IMG/VR virus record: IMGVR_UViG_647533160_000003
Length of the DNA: 64,000 nucleotides
Direction: 5' to 3' (one strand)
Origin: a virus
Taxonomy: Duplodnaviria > Heunggongvirae > Uroviricota > Caudoviricetes
The notes under the pieces are model-generated. The model saw only the letters and a list, made by a program, of their open reading frames with translations. It did no database searches and was not told the origin of the DNA. Position numbers and translations under genes: made by a program. Of the stretch, positions 11,843 through 57,832 are shown piece by piece. Numbering within the stretch: the stretch's first letter is position 1; every line of letters begins with the position of its first letter.

Positions 11843-11935
11843 TGGTAGAAAAAAATATTTATATCGGTAAAAATAAGTAGGTACTTACTTAATGGTGGGC
11901 AAGGATAGCCCACCAAATCAAGGAGCATATTCAAC

Positions 11936-17023: not shown

Positions 17024-17257
17024 ATGATGAAAAGATTATTTCTAACAATAGCTGTTGTTCTCTCTCTTACTGGCTGCCAGAAATTGCCGACACCTATATG
17101 TTACGGTGAGGCTATCATTGGTGGACAGGAGACAGTCATACCCATATATGCTGTTAAAAAAGTGAACGACTATACCTTATACAAAGCGGGTAGCATCTAT
17201 AACTGGCGATGGGTAGGAGTAGGTGCTTTCTCATCAGTTCGTTGCAATGCTGAATGA
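17024..17257 (+). CDS. small lipoprotein (77 aa)
   Basis: Signal peptide with lipobox (LSLTGC) at the N-terminus. Confidence 0.5.
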   Translation: MMKRLFLTIAVVLSLTGCQKLPTPICYGEAIIGGQETVIPIYAVKKVNDYTLYKAGSIYNWRWVGVGAFSSVRCNAE

Positions 17258-17338
17258 TAGGTAAGTACACACCTACAACAATAGGGTGAAATGTGATATA
17301 AATCCGCCATCCCGATTTGACTTTTCATGGAGGAAAAC

Positions 17339-32106: not shown

Positions 32107-32131
32107 ATAAGTATTTACTTACCTATCTTTT
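32107..32131 (+). promoter_or_regulatory. copy of recurrent intergenic dyad motif (ATAAGTA..TACTTACCTATC) upstream of noncoding/tRNA region
   Basis: ATAAGTATTTACTTACCTATC, same family as the motif found upstream of many genes in this window; here it precedes a region with no protein-coding gene. Confidence 0.3.
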
Positions 32132-32873: not shown

Positions 32874-32948
32874 GATGGTGTAGCTCAGCGGTAGAGCAGT
32901 TGGCTGTTAACCAACTGGTCGGTGGTTCGAATCCACCCACCATCGCCA
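32874..32948 (+). tRNA. tRNA-Asn (anticodon GTT)
   Basis: Cloverleaf by hand: acceptor GATGGTG/CACCATC, D-arm GCTCAGCGGTAGAGC, anticodon stem GTTGG/CCAAC with loop CTGTTAA, T-arm GGTGG-TTCGAAT-CCACC, encoded 3' GCCA. Confidence 0.8.
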
Positions 32949-32953
32949 ATTTA

Positions 32954-33040
32954 GGGGAGTTAGTCCGTAGAGGTAGCGGGACAGACTGTAAATCTACTGT
33001 CATTGCGACTCGGGTGGTTCGACTCCATCACTCCCCACCA
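32954..33040 (+). tRNA. tRNA-Tyr-like (anticodon GTA), long variable arm, imperfect anticodon stem
   Basis: Acceptor GGGGAGT/ACTCCCC, loop CTGTAAA, long variable arm, T-loop TTCGACT, encoded CCA; anticodon stem has two non-Watson-Crick positions, so it may be atypical or a pseudo-tRNA. Confidence 0.55.
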
Positions 33041-33044
33041 AATT

Positions 33045-33120
33045 GCCGGTTTAGCTCAGTTGGTAGAGCGCCTGCCTTGTAAGCAGGATGTCAGCGGTTC
33101 GAGTCCGTTAACCGGCACCA
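33045..33120 (+). tRNA. tRNA-Thr (anticodon TGT)
   Basis: Acceptor GCCGGTT/AACCGGC, D-arm TAGCTCAGTTGGTAGAGC, anticodon stem CCTGC/GCAGG with loop CTTGTAA, T-arm AGCGG-TTCGAGT-CCGTT, encoded CCA. Confidence 0.8.
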
Positions 33121-33344
33121 ATACAACGATAAGATCATTACGGTTAATCGTCGTTCATGTGCACAATGACTGGTCGAAAGGTAGTGATCTTACCGTTGTG
33201 GTGGATTCGCAGACTGATGCGATAGCTTTCTTGGATGTTAGGGAAATGCGGCCGCAAATCTTCCCTTTCGCGAGCGGTGATCGTCCGTAGTCCTAATTGG
33301 CTGCACCGTATGCCGGAGATTCAGTACCGGCCACCACAACGGCC

Positions 33345-33431
33345 GGAGAGTAGGGAGCATGGTGCTCAAGCGGTCTTGAAAATCGTCCCATTGTGCAAAC
33401 GATGATGGTTCGATTCCATTACTCTCCGCCA
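33345..33431 (+). tRNA. tRNA-Ser (anticodon TGA), class II with long variable arm
   Basis: Perfect 7-bp acceptor GGAGAGT/ACTCTCC, anticodon stem GCGGT/ATCGT with loop CTTGAAA, long variable arm, T-arm GATGG-TTCGATT-CCATT, encoded GCCA. Confidence 0.75.
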
Positions 33432-33588
33432 GACACAGCGTTGAGCGGTTTGGCCTTTTAATCAACTCGATTAAGACTCCGCTAACATAAACCAGACCGC
33501 TCAACGCTGTGATTGACAATTACGGCAGACGTTCTTAACCATAGCTTGCTAACATCCTAGCAACACTTTTTTTCAGCGCAATATTCAA

Positions 33589-33608
33589 AGGGGCTTCGGC
33601 CCCTTTTC
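33589..33608. terminator. GC hairpin with TTCG loop, probable bidirectional terminator
   Basis: AAGGGGCTTCGGCCCCTTTTCTT; on + strand follows the tRNA cluster, on - strand lies right after the stop of the 403-aa gene (33610). Confidence 0.55.
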
Positions 33609-33609
33609 T

Positions 33610-34821
33610 TCAAAAAAGTTTTATAAATTCATAATTCTGGTCAATTAAGGATTCAATACACACCATGCAAAAATCTACATCGTTAAAATCAGGTGTGTAA
33701 TATTCATCCTCATAACATTCATTTAGACCTTCAATCAATTTTTCTTTAAAAACTCCCCACGTTTCAATATGAACCATTTCCATATAAGGCGCATGTGTAT
33801 GTACTTGCAATACATCCCAGGTGTCTATAACCTCGATCCGCGGCTTGCAATTAATTTTTTCTAAATATGCCCTCCCAGAATTGTAAATTTTCGACATTGA
33901 TGCCCCAAAACCTGATGGTTGGTAATGAGTGTAAATGTCATAAATTTTTTGTCCTATTCTAGGGAGTTGAGAAGCATTGGATATTTGTGGCGAATGAAAG
34001 TATCGCTCTATGGAAGAAAACGCAGAAACATTAACTAGAGTAATCGTATATGGTGCTAAAGTTCTCTCGTTCAAATTTCTACATAAAATAGCAAACCCAT
34101 GGCTATTAGTCTTTTCACCGTCTGAGGACATTTTTGCCATGCTGGCTTTAATAACATTCAATTTCGAATGTAAACGAGAAGTGGAAGTCGGTTGATTATA
34201 CATTTCATCATCATACAAACATATATGAAACCCGCCAAGATGACGAAATGAGAACTTGAGTGCTTCTTCCGCAATAACTAATTTATTAATATCTAAAGGA
34301 GTAAGTGATACGTTACCTTGTAAATCATAGCAAGGTTCTAAACATAGAAAGTTTTTCTTCTGCCACACGATCATATTAAAAATAAAGTGTCTAACCAAAG
34401 GTGGCCAGTCAGGTGATATAAGTACATTGGTAATATCTCCATCAGACAAGTATGACAAGTAACTTTTTAGTTCCGCAGCATATGCCACTAGCTCAGTTCC
34501 AGCTTCCCTTGTTGGTGTTGAAAAATTTTTTAACTCAATAAGAACTAAGGATTCATTCTCTGTTGAATAAGCAACGACATCAGGTCTTAATATCTCAGAT
34601 TTTGTTGCTGAGATATTCTCATCATCTGTCATTAAATGTAACAATGTTATGTTCTTTAAACAAAACTGATAACTCTCCTTAATTTTTTTCTCTTCGGGTC
34701 TTTTCGGATTAAATTCATTTAATTTATCAATATTGATGATTGAATTATATAATCCATCTTGATCAGATAATTTGTCAATTATCCAATTTTGCATTTCCTT
34801 TTCGCTTAAAAATATTGACAC
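33610..34821 (-). CDS. hypothetical protein with N-terminal PD-(D/E)xK-like nuclease motif (403 aa); second gene of AT-rich accessory operon
   Basis: Motif RPDVVAYSTENESLVLIELK (aa ~79-99) fits a restriction-endonuclease-like core; hand-counted sample lines are about one-third G+C versus about one-half in neighbouring core genes; 26-nt gap to upstream gene on same strand. Confidence 0.55.
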   Translation of the reverse strand: MSIFLSEKEMQNWIIDKLSDQDGLYNSIINIDKLNEFNPKRPEEKKIKESYQFCLKNITLLHLMTDDENISATKSEILRPDVVAYSTENESLVLIELKNFSTPTREAGTELVAYAAELKSYLSYLSDGDITNVLISPDWPPLVRHFIFNMIVWQKKNFLCLEPCYDLQGNVSLTPLDINKLVIAEEALKFSFRHLGGFHICLYDDEMYNQPTSTSRLHSKLNVIKASMAKMSSDGEKTNSHGFAILCRNLNERTLAPYTITLVNVSAFSSIERYFHSPQISNASQLPRIGQKIYDIYTHYQPSGFGASMSKIYNSGRAYLEKINCKPRIEVIDTWDVLQVHTHAPYMEMVHIETWGVFKEKLIEGLNECYEDEYYTPDFNDVDFCMVCIESLIDQNYEFIKLF

Positions 34822-34847
34822 TAATTAGGCTCCCGTTAAACCAAAAA

Positions 34848-35669
34848 TTAAAAATCTTGCTTTACTTTATCCATGGTCAGAATTTTGCTAATAATTGAAG
34901 ATTCAAATCCATCTAAACCTGAGAGAAAGTTAATTAGCTTTTGGATATGTTGTTCTTTAGGTATAAGTATATATTTTATATCATTGAACTCAAAATCAAT
35001 GCCAAACTTTGAAAATTTTGAGCTAATTTTTGCTTTGTCATCAGAAGTGATAACACGCTCCAAACTCAGACTAGGCCATAAATCACCAATAAAAGGAGCT
35101 GGCACATAACGCCACTCTTTCTCGTCTGCATATATATAATTCTCTATTGTTTTATTATCTTTTCGCTCTAGCTTGCCTCTGTAATTTTTCATATAACGCA
35201 GTAAATTATATAGATCAGAATATTCTGCTTTCAATTTCTCAAACTCTATTCTGTTTTTGGTATCTAAATTTCCTCTAGCCTTCCAAAGCGGCACCAACTT
35301 ATTTTTAATAAGTCGAATTCTGGCATTGTATTTAGAAAATATTTCACTACTCTTATTCATATATAGAACTGGGTGTAGACCTTTCTTTTCCGCCCAAGAC
35401 TTAGTTAGCCCAAGACCGAATTCTCCATATTTTCCGCTATGATCTCTGATTTGTGATAGTTTTATGTCACAAAACGATACCATTGGTACTGCAAACCTCC
35501 TGCGTCCCCCGACTCCTCTTATTTCCTCGCGAGCAAGAAATGGTTTAAAATATTTCTCAGCCAATATGCTATAGAAAGCATCTTCGTTTTTTGTAAAATG
35601 AAACAACGTGGTTGGATGAAGACTATAAACAGATTCAACATTCGCATCAGGATTTTCAAGGATAGTCAT
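34848..35669 (-). CDS. hypothetical protein (approx 273 aa); first gene of AT-rich accessory operon
   Basis: AT-rich ORF co-oriented with the nuclease-motif gene; probable start at Met16 of the track ORF (MTILENPD); no motif recognised. Confidence 0.5.
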   Translation of the reverse strand: MTILENPDANVESVYSLHPTTLFHFTKNEDAFYSILAEKYFKPFLAREEIRGVGGRRRFAVPMVSFCDIKLSQIRDHSGKYGEFGLGLTKSWAEKKGLHPVLYMNKSSEIFSKYNARIRLIKNKLVPLWKARGNLDTKNRIEFEKLKAEYSDLYNLLRYMKNYRGKLERKDNKTIENYIYADEKEWRYVPAPFIGDLWPSLSLERVITSDDKAKISSKFSKFGIDFEFNDIKYILIPKEQHIQKLINFLSGLDGFESSIISKILTMDKVKQDF

Positions 35670-35958
35670 TTTACACCTTGTGGAAAGCCAGTTTAGTTCT
35701 GTAAATAGTATCACACGACAGGCGGCTATTCTTCTATCAATAAATGATAGGTAAGCACTTACTTTTTACGCACGTTAACTGTATAGTTCTTTCGGATACT
35801 CACTTGAAAGGACTCAATATGGGAAATAAATGTAAACATGCGCGTCGCGCATCTCGTCAGGTGCAGAAGTCAAATCCATACATTCACGAGCACTACCACC
35901 TCAGCTCTTTCACTAACCGCTACACGTTCCCCAGCGAAGCGCATAACGAGGCAAAGCA

Positions 35959-36204
35959 ATGACGATCACTATCTATGGACGAGATAACTGCTCATACTGC
36001 AAACGTGCGGTCGAGCTGGCGAAGCAGCTTCACGGTCACGGTTTTGGCGATTACGAATACATCGATATTGTGTCTGCTGGGATAGACAAAGAGAAATTGA
36101 GCGCCCTGGTTGGCAAGCCGGTGGAGACCATACCGCAGGTGTTCGTAAATGGCGAATCTATCGGTGGCTATACGGAATTCGCCGCTCTGGTGAGTACATT
36201 ATAA
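35959..36204 (+). CDS. glutaredoxin-like protein (NrdH/Grx-like, 81 aa)
   Basis: CxxC active site (CSYCKRA) near N-terminus and GGY motif near C-terminus; thioredoxin-fold size; G+C like core phage genes. Confidence 0.75.
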   Translation: MTITIYGRDNCSYCKRAVELAKQLHGHGFGDYEYIDIVSAGIDKEKLSALVGKPVETIPQVFVNGESIGGYTEFAALVSTL

Positions 36205-36229: not shown

Positions 36230-36371
36230 ACATGAAAGTGTGCGCTCAAATCAACTATATCTATGAAAAGGACAGTTATAAATATTAAAAATATCTAAAA
36301 TCCCTTCCGATATATGAATTATCAGATTAAAATTTCACACAATGTGCTTTTAATGAGTTATTATTTCACCT

Positions 36372-36996
36372 NNNNNNNNNNNNNNNNNNNNNNNNNNNNN
36401 NNNNNNNNNNNNNNNNNNNNNNNNNNNNNNNNNNNNNNNNNNNNNNNNNNNNNNNNNNNNNNNNNNNNNNNNNNNNNNNNNNNNNNNNNNNNNNNNNNNN
36501 NNNNNNNNNNNNNNNNNNNNNNNNNNNNNNNNNNNNNNNNNNNNNNNNNNNNNNNNNNNNNNNNNNNNNNNNNNNNNNNNNNNNNNNNNNNNNNNNNNNN
36601 NNNNNNNNNNNNNNNNNNNNNNNNNNNNNNNNNNNNNNNNNNNNNNNNNNNNNNNNNNNNNNNNNNNNNNNNNNNNNNNNNNNNNNNNNNNNNNNNNNNN
36701 NNNNNNNNNNNNNNNNNNNNNNNNNNNNNNNNNNNNNNNNNNNNNNNNNNNNNNNNNNNNNNNNNNNNNNNNNNNNNNNNNNNNNNNNNNNNNNNNNNNN
36801 NNNNNNNNNNNNNNNNNNNNNNNNNNNNNNNNNNNNNNNNNNNNNNNNNNNNNNNNNNNNNNNNNNNNNNNNNNNNNNNNNNNNNNNNNNNNNNNNNNNN
36901 NNNNNNNNNNNNNNNNNNNNNNNNNNNNNNNNNNNNNNNNNNNNNNNNNNNNNNNNNNNNNNNNNNNNNNNNNNNNNNNNNNNNNNNNNNNNNNNN
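36372..36996. other. run of 625 N (assembly gap or masked sequence)
   Basis: Uninterrupted n characters; ORFs translated as X across it are artefacts. Confidence 0.99.
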
Positions 36997-37760
36997 GAAA
37001 TGTTTCTACCACGGTGATAATCCATTCCATAAACCGAATCAATTCCTGAGTTCACTATCTTCATCTGAATTTCAAAAAAATCATTATTTAAATCAAAGTA
37101 AACAATAGGGACCTCATATCTTCTGCTAGAAAAATCCATTGGTGATAGATAGTTAAGACCATTTGCACTGACCTTCACTTGAATTCCAGCCTGTATACCT
37201 GAATTCGACGTTGGAGCAGAAATAAGTAATTGAGAAAGTGGGTCTCGTTTGTCTATCCACACAATGTCCCGTTGAGTATCATTAGGTTGATATTTAGTAG
37301 GATAGTTAATTTTCGTATAGTTGAGTCCAGTCCCAACAGCTTTATAATTAGACAAACTATCTGTGAAAGGGGTATATCTCTTTGCTAATAATGCCCAGTT
37401 TTCATTTTGTTTCGCGTTTTTTTCACATTCTTCAACAATGAGTGCTTCCGCAATTTTACCTAATATTCTCATAGTTGTTTTATGGGGATCTAGTTCGATA
37501 ATGATGTTTGACTTGATCACTCCTTCTTCATTAATACCAACAAGACCTAACTCTTTATCCATGAGTTCAAATAAATTTTCCCCATGCTCAATTGCTAACA
37601 AAGCTGAAGGTCGTGATAATAATGAAGAGTTATTCCAATCTCCGAGGGAGATATCCAGACCTAAATCAATACCTTTAGTCGTCACTACTAGCTGAGGTTT
37701 GGGAGGCGTAGCCCCTAATAACTCAGATAGCGTGTTGACTTCCGGTGTCTCTTTTATCAT
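36997..37760 (-). CDS. hypothetical protein, 5' portion only (3' end lost in N run)
   Basis: AT-rich minus-strand ORF starting MIKETPEV at 37760 and running into the N run after at least 254 codons; no motif recognised. Confidence 0.45.
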
Positions 37761-38034
37761 TTTTCTTATCCTGTTGCAGCGATCGCATGACAATACTATA
37801 AAACCAGCCATTTTCAAGTAAATCAATTACCTTTTAGGTGATGAAGATAAAAGTGAAGCCAACCCCTCCGTTCGAAAAGATAGATTCAAAAAAATCGCCC
37901 CCCAATGATTCCATACCTACTATGTATGGAATCATTACTGAAAATGAGTTACTTTTACTCTTGATCCTATAAGAATCTATGCCTAATATACTGTTTACTT
38001 ATACAGTGCATCGGCGTAACTCGGTGATTGTCAT

Positions 38035-39525: not shown

Positions 39526-39770
39526 AACCTTTGCGCGTTCAATTCTCTCTGGTAAGTGCTTACCGATATTACATCAAAGGTTAGGGTTGTAAAGCTATTA
39601 TCATTTTTTTCGATAGGCACTTAAAAGACCGGTTAAAGGCCATTGCACGGAGAAAAATTAGCCCAAAATAGGTAAGAAAAGTAACTTGCATATGATATGA
39701 ATGTATTCAGTATTGATACAAATTTTAGTAGTATTCCTTACCATAGTATAAGTTAGAATGGATTGATTGA

Positions 39771-48705: not shown

Positions 48706-48822
48706 TTTTTGATAGATAATAAGTAAGTACTGATCTATCATTTAACAGCTCGAAAGAGCCACGAATGAACGAAAGCCCAACGCGCATAGCGCCATCGGCC
48801 AAATCACAACAAGGAGAAACAC

Positions 48823-52228: not shown

Positions 52229-52291
52229 ATCTCTTGAAAATATATAAGTACTTACTTATTATTTTCGCATAACAACCACATAGGAAAACAC

Positions 52292-54174: not shown

Positions 54175-54389
54175 GTTTACAGTAAAATTTATATAAGTTA
54201 GTATCTACCTATCATGAAGATTTTTATTGAATACTTGTTACTCATCGTGTCAATAGCTTTTGTCATCGACTGCATTTTCACTGGTGTCATTCGTAAAGTC
54301 TTTTCCCCGGTGAACGACGTAGTCATAAACGCTTTGGCTATCGTGCTCGTATTTAATTCAGCATTTGATGTAATCAAAGAGGTGGCAGC

Positions 54390-57578: not shown

Positions 57579-57832
57579 CCCTCCAGATCGTATATTGGCG
57601 TAGATAGAATCTACGCCTCCTCAAAATAGCTCTCATAGCGTTCTACAGTGATTCTGTCTTATTTTTAGTCATACAGACAAGCAAACTTGCGCCACAATAA
57701 ATAGGTATATACTTACTTATAAATTTTGTATATTAAGGTGCTAGTTTCATTCCTAACATACCGTTATGCATAGTTGTTTACCTTCTCATTGCTCTTAGAA
57801 TTTGTATCAAAATAACCACAAAGGAAAAACAC

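What the first reader, a model, noticed from the sequence alone, without database searches (positions are those of the whole stretch)
33610..35714. AT-rich two-gene operon with a PD-(D/E)xK-like nuclease motif between the tRNA cluster and the integrase: candidate undescribed accessory or defence system
Two co-oriented minus-strand genes (about 273 aa and 403 aa, 26-nt spacer) end in a GC hairpin at 33589-33608. Lines sampled by hand are about one-third G+C against about one-half in adjacent core genes, which suggests separate acquisition. The 403-aa protein carries RPDVVAYSTENESLVLIELK near its N-terminus, consistent with a restriction-endonuclease-fold core; I recognise no family for the rest of it or for the upstream protein. 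The divergent promoter region (35739-35770) carries a copy of the recurrent dyad motif, so the operon may be under phage regulatory control. Nuclease-containing operons in tRNA/integrase-adjacent hotspots of phages and plasmids are frequently anti-phage or abortive-infection modules.
Basis: partly seen in the sequence, partly recalled or inferred. Interest (0 to 1): 0.8.

Follow-up and report, generated by a model that had tools for sequence, protein, structure and literature searches.

The report
AbiGi gene plus orphan nuclease gene
This AT-rich insert in an E. coli phage-plasmid carries a known AbiGi-family gene and an uncharacterised nuclease gene; each usually occurs alone in other mobile elements, so they look like two stacked candidate anti-phage genes rather than one new two-gene system.

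Summary
Two co-oriented minus-strand genes of 273 and 403 aa sit 26 nt apart. Their G+C is 0.336, the lowest of 593 windows, and the PD...ExK motif is invariant across the family.

The upstream gene is not unknown. It is an AbiGi-family protein (PADLOC 5e-47), already annotated as such in RefSeq. Its model has an ADP-ribosyltransferase (DarT-like) fold and intact HxT / SxC / ExE motifs.

The two genes have independent histories:
- 62 of 65 loci carrying the nuclease family lack AbiGi. Many are the last gene after the integrase of P2-like prophages.
- Close AbiGi relatives are solo in IncF plasmids, in prophages and at the same site of Klebsiella phage-plasmids.
- The site has three states: empty, abiGi only, and abiGi plus nuclease.

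The best reading is two stacked, co-transcribed single-gene defence-type cargo genes. A coupled AbiGi–nuclease system remains possible, because other AbiGi genes have nucleases fused or adjacent. Interest is moderate.

The parts
34848..35669 (-). abiGi-family gene, 273 aa from the ATG at 35669. The upstream in-frame GTG at 35714 is probably not used.
35592..35600 (-). AbiGi motif I, H24-F25-T26 (HxT), on strand beta1 of the model.
   Evidence: H24 is invariant and T26 at least 90% conserved in 43 homologues. Strand 21-26 in the model. Assignment to ART motif I is inferred from the published signature (PMC12522546).
35469..35477 (-). AbiGi motif II, S65-F66-C67, part of PMVSFCD.
   Evidence: F66 and D68 invariant; S65 and C67 at least 90% conserved.
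35115..35123 (-). AbiGi motif III, E183-K184-E185 (ExE), followed by W186-R187.
   Evidence: E183, E185, W186 and R187 are invariant, including in lactococcal AbiGI. A strand starts at residue 185 in the model.
34822..34847 (-). 26-nt intergenic spacer with a GGGAG ribosome-binding site.
   Evidence: Read from the sequence.
33610..34821 (-). 403-aa gene of an unannotated family (PHROG 30092). Architecture: N-terminal helices, a PD-(D/E)xK nuclease domain (about residues 58-165), and a C-terminal alpha/beta region of unknown function.
34528..34587 (-). Nuclease core motif RPDVVAYSTENESLVLIELK, residues 79-98 (D81, E96, K98).
   Evidence: P80, D81, E96 and K98 invariant. R105, G108, T109 and E110 are also invariant just downstream. 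D81 precedes strand 82-86, and E96/K98 end strand 91-97.
33587..33606 (.). GC hairpin AAAGGGGC-TTCG-GCCCCTTT belonging to the backbone. It closes the operon but is oriented better as a + strand terminator.
   Evidence: It is retained in the Cyrano (empty) and Klebsiella (abiGi-only) alleles, where homology resumes at 33613 and 33618.
35747..35766 (.). Copy of the recurrent 20-bp dyad, in the divergent region between abiGi and the phoH-remnant/grx operon.
   Evidence: A dyad occupies the same relative place upstream of abiGi in the Klebsiella allele.
35707..35715 (-). Possible extended -10 element TGTGATACT for the operon. This is an inference.
   Evidence: Read from the sequence. It is conserved as TGTGGTACT in Klebsiella L057. 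The promoter scan did not flag it.

Best explanation
The region is an accessory, horizontally acquired cargo cassette in a variable site of an SSU5-like E. coli phage-plasmid, between tRNA-Ser and the phoH-remnant/grx operon. It holds two defence-type genes that are probably co-transcribed but work independently.

Gene 1 is an AbiGi-family protein. Its fold and conserved HxT / SxC / ExE residues indicate a DarT-like ADP-ribosyltransferase, so it is probably an enzyme and effector rather than the 'antitoxin' of its database name. By analogy with lactococcal AbiG and with DarT, I infer that it is silent until a phage cue appears. It would then ADP-ribosylate a nucleic acid or protein target and stop phage development.

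Gene 2 is a member of an unannotated family of stand-alone PD-(D/E)xK nucleases. These carry a C-terminal domain of unknown function, presumably for sensing or regulation. I infer that it cuts invading or replicating DNA.

Shown: family membership, folds, conserved catalytic residues, the gene-sized indel structure of the site, and the independent distribution of the two families.
Inferred: enzymatic activities, the anti-phage role, independence of action, and co-transcription.
For: Acquisition:
- Lowest G+C in the window, and low GC3.
- The operon is on about 111-kb plasmids in 19 of 5426 complete E. coli genomes. The backbone ligase is in 246.

Three allelic states of the site:
- Phage Cyrano has neither gene.
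- Klebsiella phage-plasmids have abiGi only (65% aa identity). Homology resumes 15 bp after its stop, at window 33618, so the 403-aa gene is a clean gene-sized indel.
- The E. coli lineage has both.

Independence of the nuclease family:
- A profile HMM built from 115 AbiGi homologues detects lactococcal AbiGI at 1.7e-36. It finds AbiGi in only 3 of 65 loci holding the nuclease family, all from this plasmid lineage.
- At least 16 loci place the nuclease gene 2-13 nt after a P2-like integrase at the prophage edge. That region is a published minor P2 defence hotspot (PMC13586616).
- One homologue is ICE cargo.
- No neighbouring family recurs across the 34 species loci.

Independence of AbiGi:
- 71% homologues are solo in IncF plasmids beside Avs4, and solo beside transposase and caspase/NLR-like genes.
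- A 60% homologue is solo in a Serratia prophage.
- Of 84 AbiGi loci with enough downstream sequence, 60 have no close co-oriented partner.

Defence context of the nuclease family: neighbours include Avs3a, type I and IIG R-M, Cas1/Cas7, AbiEii, RmrA, BovA, PDC-S05, AriA, AAA_15, CHAT, a reverse transcriptase and Cas4.

Folds and motifs. AbiGi is listed as a known ART family in PMC12522546.
Against: - The 26-nt spacing and the insertion of the nuclease gene exactly between the abiGi stop and the terminator keep the two genes in one transcript, as expected for a system.
- Other AbiGi homologues have a nuclease immediately downstream: Mrr, Mrr_cat, RusA, and one with a PD..ExK motif seen only by eye. 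One is fused to an HNH domain (P0090).
- Canonical AbiG is a two-gene system with a partner of about 400 aa.
- No phenotype data exist for either gene.
- A solo ART-type toxin would need a means of staying silent, and I have not identified one.
Confidence: 0.55

Rival explanations
1. The two genes form one coupled system, a non-canonical AbiG-like module. The ART-fold AbiGi works with a swappable nuclease partner, here the PD-(D/E)xK protein in place of AbiGii. One component senses or marks and the other executes.
For: - Tight operon: 26-nt spacer and a shared terminator.
- The pair is kept intact at 99% identity or more in all 19 E. coli genomes that have it.
- An HNH-AbiGi fusion protein exists (P0090).
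- Nuclease genes lie directly downstream of other AbiGi homologues: Mrr in L128, Mrr_cat in L139, RusA in L142, and a PD..ExK motif seen by eye in L111.
- Lactococcal AbiG is a two-gene system with a 397-aa partner.
Against: - The families co-occur only in one near-clonal plasmid lineage: 3 of 65 nuclease-family loci and 4 of 104 AbiGi loci.
- abiGi persists without the nuclease at the same site in Klebsiella.
- The nuclease persists without AbiGi in P2-like prophages, an ICE and 34 species.
- 71% of AbiGi loci have no close downstream partner.
- Nucleases are common in defence islands, so adjacency may be background. No control was run.
Confidence: 0.28
2. The cassette is not anti-phage. It could be a plasmid-addiction or toxin-type module, an anti-defence or host-takeover function of the phage-plasmid (an ART modifying host targets, a nuclease degrading host or competitor DNA), or inert cargo.
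For: - RefSeq names AbiGi an 'antitoxin'.
- A 71% AbiGi homologue lies near psiB and a ParB-family gene in IncF plasmids.
- Phages use ARTs and nucleases for host takeover (general knowledge).
- No phenotype is known.
Against: - No cognate partner is co-inherited with either gene.
- Lactococcal AbiGi and AbiGii were not toxic when expressed in E. coli (PMC3985639).
- The genomic contexts are typical for defence: prophage edge, ICE cargo, next to Avs, R-M, CRISPR and PARIS components.
- Catalytic residues are invariant over wide divergence, which argues against inert cargo.
Confidence: 0.13
3. It is a canonical AbiG (AbiGi + AbiGii) abortive-infection system.
For: AbiGi family hit. The partner is similar in size to AbiGii: 403 against 397 aa.
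Against: - The 403-aa protein has no hit to Pfam AbiGii_2 or to any PADLOC model, whereas lactococcal AbiGII hits PF16873 at 2e-157.
- hhalign of the family profile against AbiGII gives probability 0.05%.
- The NCBIfam AbiGI equivalog scores 52 bits against a cutoff of 300.
Confidence: 0.02

Closest known systems
Lactococcal AbiG (AbiGi + AbiGii, plasmid pCI750 type)
   Same: The upstream protein is in the same Pfam and PADLOC family as AbiGI, and the ExE-W-R motif is shared. Both are two co-oriented genes with a downstream partner of about 400 aa, carried on a mobile element.
   Different: - The partner is unrelated to AbiGii.
- The AbiGi here is only about 25-30% identical to lactococcal AbiGI and fails the NCBIfam equivalog cutoff.
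- Lactococcal AbiGI has N in place of the motif I histidine.
- This clade of AbiGi is mostly solo.
- The AbiG mechanism is itself unknown (PMC13064643).
DarT (DarTG) ssDNA ADP-ribosyltransferase and the wider ART superfamily
   Same: Best structural matches of the AbiGi model. The tripartite [R/H]x[D/T] - [S/Y]xx - [Q/E]x[Q/E/D] signature is present as HFT / SFC / EKE. AbiGi is already listed as an ART family (PMC12522546).
   Different: - No sequence-level match to DarT.
- No DarG-like macrodomain antitoxin lies next to it.
- AbiGi has a long helical insert (residues 110-157) and a C-terminal extension.
- Substrate and activity are untested.
Stand-alone PD-(D/E)xK defence or repair nucleases (NucS, Mrr/type IV enzymes, McrC, Shedu SduA, Can2/Card1 nuclease domains)
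   Same: The same nuclease core fold and the D...ExK catalytic triad. A single-gene architecture of nuclease plus an extra domain, found in defence islands and prophages.
   Different: - No significant Pfam, PADLOC or NCBIfam membership in any of these. Only a sub-threshold HSDR_N hit.
- The C-terminal half (about residues 190-403) has conserved CLYD, HGF and WG motifs but no informative fold match.
- Some relatives carry a further unknown domain of about 350 aa.
Defence cargo hotspots of temperate elements (P2 integrase-att hotspot; phage-plasmid accessory sites)
   Same: Gene-sized presence/absence variation at a fixed site, low G+C, and defence-type content. The integrase-att region is a described minor P2 hotspot (PMC13586616).
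   Different: The site here, between the tRNA cluster and phoH/grx in SSU5-like phage-plasmids, was not described as a hotspot in the papers I read. A DefenseFinder survey of SSU5 elements does not mention AbiG.

Membership tests
AbiG system (AbiGi + AbiGii) | AbiGi-family protein present | tested here: met
   PADLOC AbiGi 5.3e-47 over residues 27-288 of 288. Pfam PF10899 scores 89 bits against a cutoff of 22.4. It is not an NCBIfam AbiGI equivalog: 52 bits against a cutoff of 300.
AbiG system (AbiGi + AbiGii) | AbiGii-family (PF16873) protein encoded directly downstream | tested here: not met
   No PF16873 hit and no PADLOC hit for the 403-aa protein. hhalign against lactococcal AbiGII gives probability 0.05%. 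The positive control, AbiGII, hits PF16873 at 2.3e-157.
AbiG system (AbiGi + AbiGii) | Abortive-infection phenotype; activation by the phage major tail protein | not testable with these tools
   Known only for the lactococcal system (PMC12184496; PMC13064643).
PD-(D/E)xK nuclease superfamily (403-aa protein) | Conserved D ... (D/E)xK catalytic motif | tested here: met
   P80, D81, E96 and K98 are invariant in 35 sequences sharing 32-52% identity with the window protein.
PD-(D/E)xK nuclease superfamily (403-aa protein) | alpha-beta-beta-beta-alpha-beta core fold | tested here: met
PD-(D/E)xK nuclease superfamily (403-aa protein) | Metal-dependent nuclease activity | not testable with these tools
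   Needs biochemistry.
ADP-ribosyltransferase superfamily, DarT-like (AbiGi) | ART fold | tested here: met
ADP-ribosyltransferase superfamily, DarT-like (AbiGi) | [quoted passage not shown] | tested here: inconclusive
   H24-F-T26, S65-F-C67 and E183-K-E185 are conserved and lie on the expected strands. I could not obtain a residue-level structural superposition on DarT, so the equivalence is inferred.
ADP-ribosyltransferase superfamily, DarT-like (AbiGi) | NAD+-dependent ADP-ribosylation | not testable with these tools
   Needs biochemistry.
Toxin-antitoxin pair (as implied by the name 'AbiGi antitoxin') | Cognate partner co-inherited and adjacent across relatives | tested here: not met
   AbiGi is solo in most loci and its partners are heterogeneous. 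The nuclease family lacks AbiGi in 62 of 65 loci.
Shedu (SduA, DUF4263) | DUF4263 / PADLOC SduA profile match | tested here: not met
Restriction-modification | Cognate methyltransferase in the locus | tested here: not met
   Only the two genes lie between tRNA-Ser and the grx operon. Neither has a methyltransferase domain.
Type III TA / RNA-antitoxin Abi (ToxIN, AbiQ type) | Tandem repeat or known RNA next to the protein gene | tested here: not met
   No Rfam family other than the tRNA, and no tandem repeats within the operon.

The most novel reading that the evidence does not exclude
AbiGi-family ADP-ribosyltransferases and neighbouring or fused nucleases form a modular 'mark-and-cut' immunity. 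The partners seen are the PD-(D/E)xK protein here, Mrr and RusA elsewhere, and a fused HNH domain. On sensing infection, the ART would ADP-ribosylate phage nucleic acid, and the nuclease, acting like a modification-dependent enzyme, would recognise and cleave the marked molecule. The nuclease partner would be freely exchangeable.
Probability: 0.07. Interest if true: 0.85.

Novelty: new variant of a known kind. Interest (0 to 1): 0.42.

Why it matters
- It gives a cheap, testable candidate for a new single-gene anti-phage nuclease. The family has about 457 clusters, is absent from Pfam, NCBIfam and PADLOC 2.0, and recurs at the integrase-att edge of P2-like prophages, in an ICE and in phage-plasmids of clinical and livestock E. 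coli.
- The widely propagated label 'AbiGi antitoxin' is probably wrong. The protein has a DarT-like ADP-ribosyltransferase fold with intact catalytic motifs and is mostly solo. That offers a concrete biochemical hypothesis for AbiG, whose mechanism has been open since 1996. A 2026 review still describes it as having no recognisable fold.
- It documents a three-state cargo hotspot in SSU5-like phage-plasmids.

None of this is categorically new biology unless the coupled ART–nuclease reading turns out to be true.

Tried and rejected
- **Canonical AbiG:** rejected, because the partner is not AbiGii.
- **Conserved partner for the 403-aa family:** all-against-all BLAST of the neighbours in 34 species found no recurring family. 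The AbiGi HMM found nothing in those loci.
- **Conserved partner for AbiGi:** the only recurrent neighbour is a holin-like membrane protein of about 100 aa, upstream in 8 prophage loci. That marks a position next to the lysis cassette, not a partner.
- **Phage database tblastn with the 403-aa protein:** no match, although PHROG 30092 matches strongly.
- **Profile search of AbiGi against PDB sequences:** nothing.
- **The afdb50 fold library:** not available.
- **Pfam and PADLOC on the roughly 720-aa relatives:** nothing for the extra C-terminal domain.
- **O'Connor 1999 paper (PMC91026):** not held, so I could not check whether both lactococcal genes are required.
- **RefSeq accessions of both proteins:** appear in no searchable paper.
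- **Rfam and tandem-repeat scans of the operon:** nothing relevant.
- **Second nuclease site in the C-terminal half:** I considered one (CLYDD ... FLWK) but dropped it, because the lysine is not conserved in the window protein.
Full report
**What the element is.** The window is part of an SSU5-like E. coli phage-plasmid of about 111 kb with an IncFIB replicon. The region is 99-100% identical to plasmids such as pLH09-a-C and pEC16-2. The backbone resembles Escherichia phage Cyrano and Klebsiella phage-plasmids. The local gene order is:
- ATP-dependent DNA ligase and three small genes;
- tRNA-Asn, -Tyr, -Thr and -Ser on the + strand;
- the two genes of the finding on the minus strand;
- a divergent small ORF plus grxA;
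- a hypothetical gene that contains a masked N-run;
- a tyrosine integrase and an HTH regulator.

**Check of the observation.**
- The ORFs lie at 33610-34821(-) (403 aa) and 34848-35714(-).
- RefSeq starts the second gene at the ATG at 35669, giving 273 aa, with an AAGGTG ribosome-binding site.
- The in-frame GTG at 35714 lies inside a possible extended -10 element, TGTGATACT. This element is conserved in the Klebsiella allele, so I prefer the 273-aa form (inference).
- The spacer is 26 nt.
- The hairpin is at 33587-33606 and folds at -13.2 kcal/mol. Its T-rich tail is on the + strand side, and it is retained in relatives that lack the operon. It therefore belongs to the backbone and probably also terminates the tRNA cluster.
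- G+C is 0.336 against 0.454 for the window. That is the lowest of 593 windows of 2.1 kb and about 4 sd below the mean. GC3 is 0.28 against 0.50-0.52.
- The motif RPDVVAYSTENESLVLIELK is residues 79-98.
- The dyad is real. Its consensus is ATAGGTAAGTRCTTACCTAT. The 15-mer core gives 15 matches against 1.25 expected. All 13 copies with 5 or fewer mismatches to the 20-mer are intergenic.

**The upstream gene.**
- It is an AbiGi-family protein: PADLOC AbiGi 5.3e-47 over its full length and Pfam PF10899 4.8e-25. RefSeq already annotates it as 'abortive infection system antitoxin AbiGi family protein'.
- It is a distant relative of lactococcal AbiGI, at about 25-30% identity, and fails the NCBIfam equivalog cutoff.
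- An AF2 model built from 43 homologues has pLDDT 90.7.
- The best Foldseek hit is also DarT, but it is not significant alone (E 0.08).
- A 2025 survey lists AbiGi among known but poorly studied ART families (PMC12522546). A 2026 review of lactococcal Abi systems reports no fold similarity for AbiGi or AbiGii and an unknown mechanism (PMC13064643).
- The family keeps H24-F-T26, S65-F-C67-D68 and E183-K-E185-W-R. These lie on the expected strands and fit the published tripartite ART signature. I infer an active enzyme rather than an antitoxin.

**The downstream gene.**
- It has no PADLOC or NCBIfam match. Pfam gives only a sub-threshold HSDR_N_2 match over residues 64-129.
- It matches PHROG 30092, of unknown function.
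- Homologues are all 'hypothetical' with no Pfam domain. An exhaustive profile search finds 457 clusters at 50% identity, 323 of them at E <= 1e-10. These include relatives of about 700-750 aa with an extra, unrecognised C-terminal half.
- P80, D81, E96 and K98 are invariant, as are R105 and G108-T109-E110.
- The AF2 model (pLDDT 91.8) shows the alpha-beta-beta-beta-alpha-beta core, with D81 before strand 2 and E96/K98 on strand 3.
- The C-terminal half has conserved motifs (CLYD, HGF, PY, WG) but only weak, uninformative fold matches.
- It is not AbiGii. hhalign gives probability 0.05%, and lactococcal AbiGII hits PF16873 at 2e-157 while this protein does not.

**One system or two genes?** I tested co-occurrence in both directions.

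*Starting from the nuclease family.*
- I collected 65 loci: 34 species genomes, viral contigs, plasmids and encoding contigs.
- A profile HMM built from 115 AbiGi homologues detects lactococcal AbiGI at 1.7e-36. It finds AbiGi in only 3 of the 65 loci, all from this E. coli plasmid lineage.
- No neighbouring family recurs across the 34 species loci.
- In at least 16 loci the gene follows a P2-like integrase by 2-13 nt, as the last prophage gene, with different host flanks. The integrase-att interval is a described minor defence hotspot of P2-like phages (PMC13586616).
- Another homologue is cargo of an ICE.
- Neighbours across species include Avs3a, type I and IIG R-M, Cas1/Cas7, AbiEii, RmrA, BovA, PDC-S05, AriA, AAA_15 ATPase, CHAT, a reverse transcriptase, Cas4, integrases and IS110. 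This is a defence-island and MGE context, but I had no background control.

*Starting from AbiGi.*
- Homologues at 71% identity are solo in IncF plasmids beside Avs4, and solo beside transposase and caspase/NLR-like genes.
- A 60% homologue is solo in a Serratia prophage.
- A 65% homologue is solo at the syntenic site of Klebsiella phage-plasmids.
- Of 84 AbiGi loci with at least 600 bp of downstream sequence, 24 have a close co-oriented gene of 140 aa or more and 60 do not.

**The site itself shows three states.**
- Phage Cyrano lacks both genes. Homology runs to window 33613 and resumes at 35948.
- Klebsiella plasmids have abiGi only. Homology resumes at window 33618, just 15 bp after their abiGi stop.
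- The E. coli lineage has both. The 403-aa gene is therefore a clean, gene-sized indel placed between the abiGi stop and the backbone hairpin.

In complete E. coli genomes the backbone ligase is present in 246 of 5426. The operon is present in 19, always on plasmids of about 111 kb and always with both genes.

**Evidence that keeps the coupled-system idea alive.**
- The insertion preserves a single transcription unit.
- One AbiGi homologue is fused to a PtuB-like HNH nuclease domain (P0090).
- Several other AbiGi homologues have a nuclease gene directly downstream: full-length Mrr (L128), Mrr_cat (L139), RusA (L142), and a protein with an RPD...EAK motif seen only by eye (L111).
- I could not test whether this exceeds the nuclease density expected in defence islands.

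**Mechanism, as best supported.**
- These are two stacked defence-type cargo genes, confidence 0.55.
- AbiGi would be a DarT-like ADP-ribosyltransferase that is silent until a phage cue. For lactococcal AbiG the trigger is the major tail protein (PMC12184496). It would then modify a nucleic acid or protein target and block phage development.
- The 403-aa protein would be a stand-alone PD-(D/E)xK nuclease whose C-terminal domain gates or targets cleavage.
- Shown: families, folds, conserved residues, indel structure and distribution.
- Inferred: activities, triggers, the anti-phage role and independence.
- Rivals: a coupled AbiGi–nuclease system (0.28), a non-defence role (0.13) and canonical AbiG (0.02).

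**The dyad.**
- The copy at 35747-35766 lies 78 bp upstream of the abiGi ATG and about 50 bp upstream of the divergent small ORF that precedes grxA.
- An equivalent dyad occupies the same place in the Klebsiella abiGi-only allele. None is found in the corresponding Cyrano interval.
- A near-consensus copy precedes the HTH regulator gene next to the integrase (39548-39567).
- Control of the region by the phage regulator is plausible but untested. The dyad may serve the divergent operon instead.

**Verdict.**
- The 'undescribed two-gene system' is better described as a known-family gene (AbiGi) plus an uncharacterised stand-alone nuclease family, sharing a cargo hotspot.
- Novelty is that of a new variant of known kinds.
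- The most useful outputs are the candidate nuclease defence family and the enzyme hypothesis for AbiGi.

Noticed in passing
window 36372-36996 (N-run), inside ORF 36366-37826(-): A 625-base masked stretch lies in the 3' part of a low-G+C (0.365) hypothetical gene between grxA and the integrase. The readable 244 aa are identical to WP_052322692 (307 aa) of pLH09-a-C, with no Pfam or PADLOC hit. In pEC16-2 and Klebsiella plasmids this interval instead holds a YafO-family toxin gene plus other genes, so it is a second variable cargo site. The grxA-to-integrase interval is 1831 bp here against 1391 bp in pLH09-a-C.
   Followed up: partly
window, e.g. 11873-11892, 17257-17276, 23480-23499, 32107-32126, 35747-35766, 39548-39567, 48719-48738, 52240-52259, 54193-54212, 57701-57720, 62385-62404: A recurrent 20-bp dyad, ATAGGTAAGTRCTTACCTAT. 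All 13 copies with 5 or fewer mismatches are intergenic and most precede + strand genes. One precedes the HTH regulator beside the integrase. It is a candidate operator or promoter element of the phage-plasmid.
   Followed up: partly
P0090 (411 aa, metagenome assembly): A fusion protein with an N-terminal HNH (PtuB-like) nuclease domain and a C-terminal full AbiGi domain.
   Followed up: partly
P0221-P0318: Many relatives of the 403-aa family are about 700-750 aa. Their first 360 residues or so match the family, and they carry an extra C-terminal half with no Pfam or PADLOC match.
   Followed up: partly
L056 (Salmonella pSD_88), and 40 plasmid records whose abiGi match is 60-80% identical: In pSD_88 a solo AbiGi gene, 71% identical to the window's, sits between the psiB / ParB-family / DUF905 block and an Avs4 gene. 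Only this record was inspected.
   Followed up: partly
L080, L081, L083, L087, L088, L103, L122, L134: In eight prophage-like contigs, AbiGi lies just downstream of a holin-like membrane protein of about 100 aa. That places it beside the lysis cassette.
   Followed up: no
window about 35819-35962(+), against Klebsiella L057 4051-4827: The small ORF upstream of grxA (47 aa, MGNKCKHARR...) seems to share its 5' end with phoH of the Klebsiella plasmids. This suggests a phoH deletion remnant in the E. coli lineage.
   Followed up: no
window 32874-33431: The tRNA cluster is Asn-Tyr-Thr-Ser. Phage Cyrano has Asn-Thr-Ser only, so tRNA content also varies at this site.
   Followed up: no
A2 alignment, lactococcal AbiGI (L055:2785-3666): Lactococcal AbiGI keeps the ExE-W-R motif but has Asn in place of the motif I histidine, which is invariant in the 43 Gram-negative-type homologues.
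   Followed up: partly
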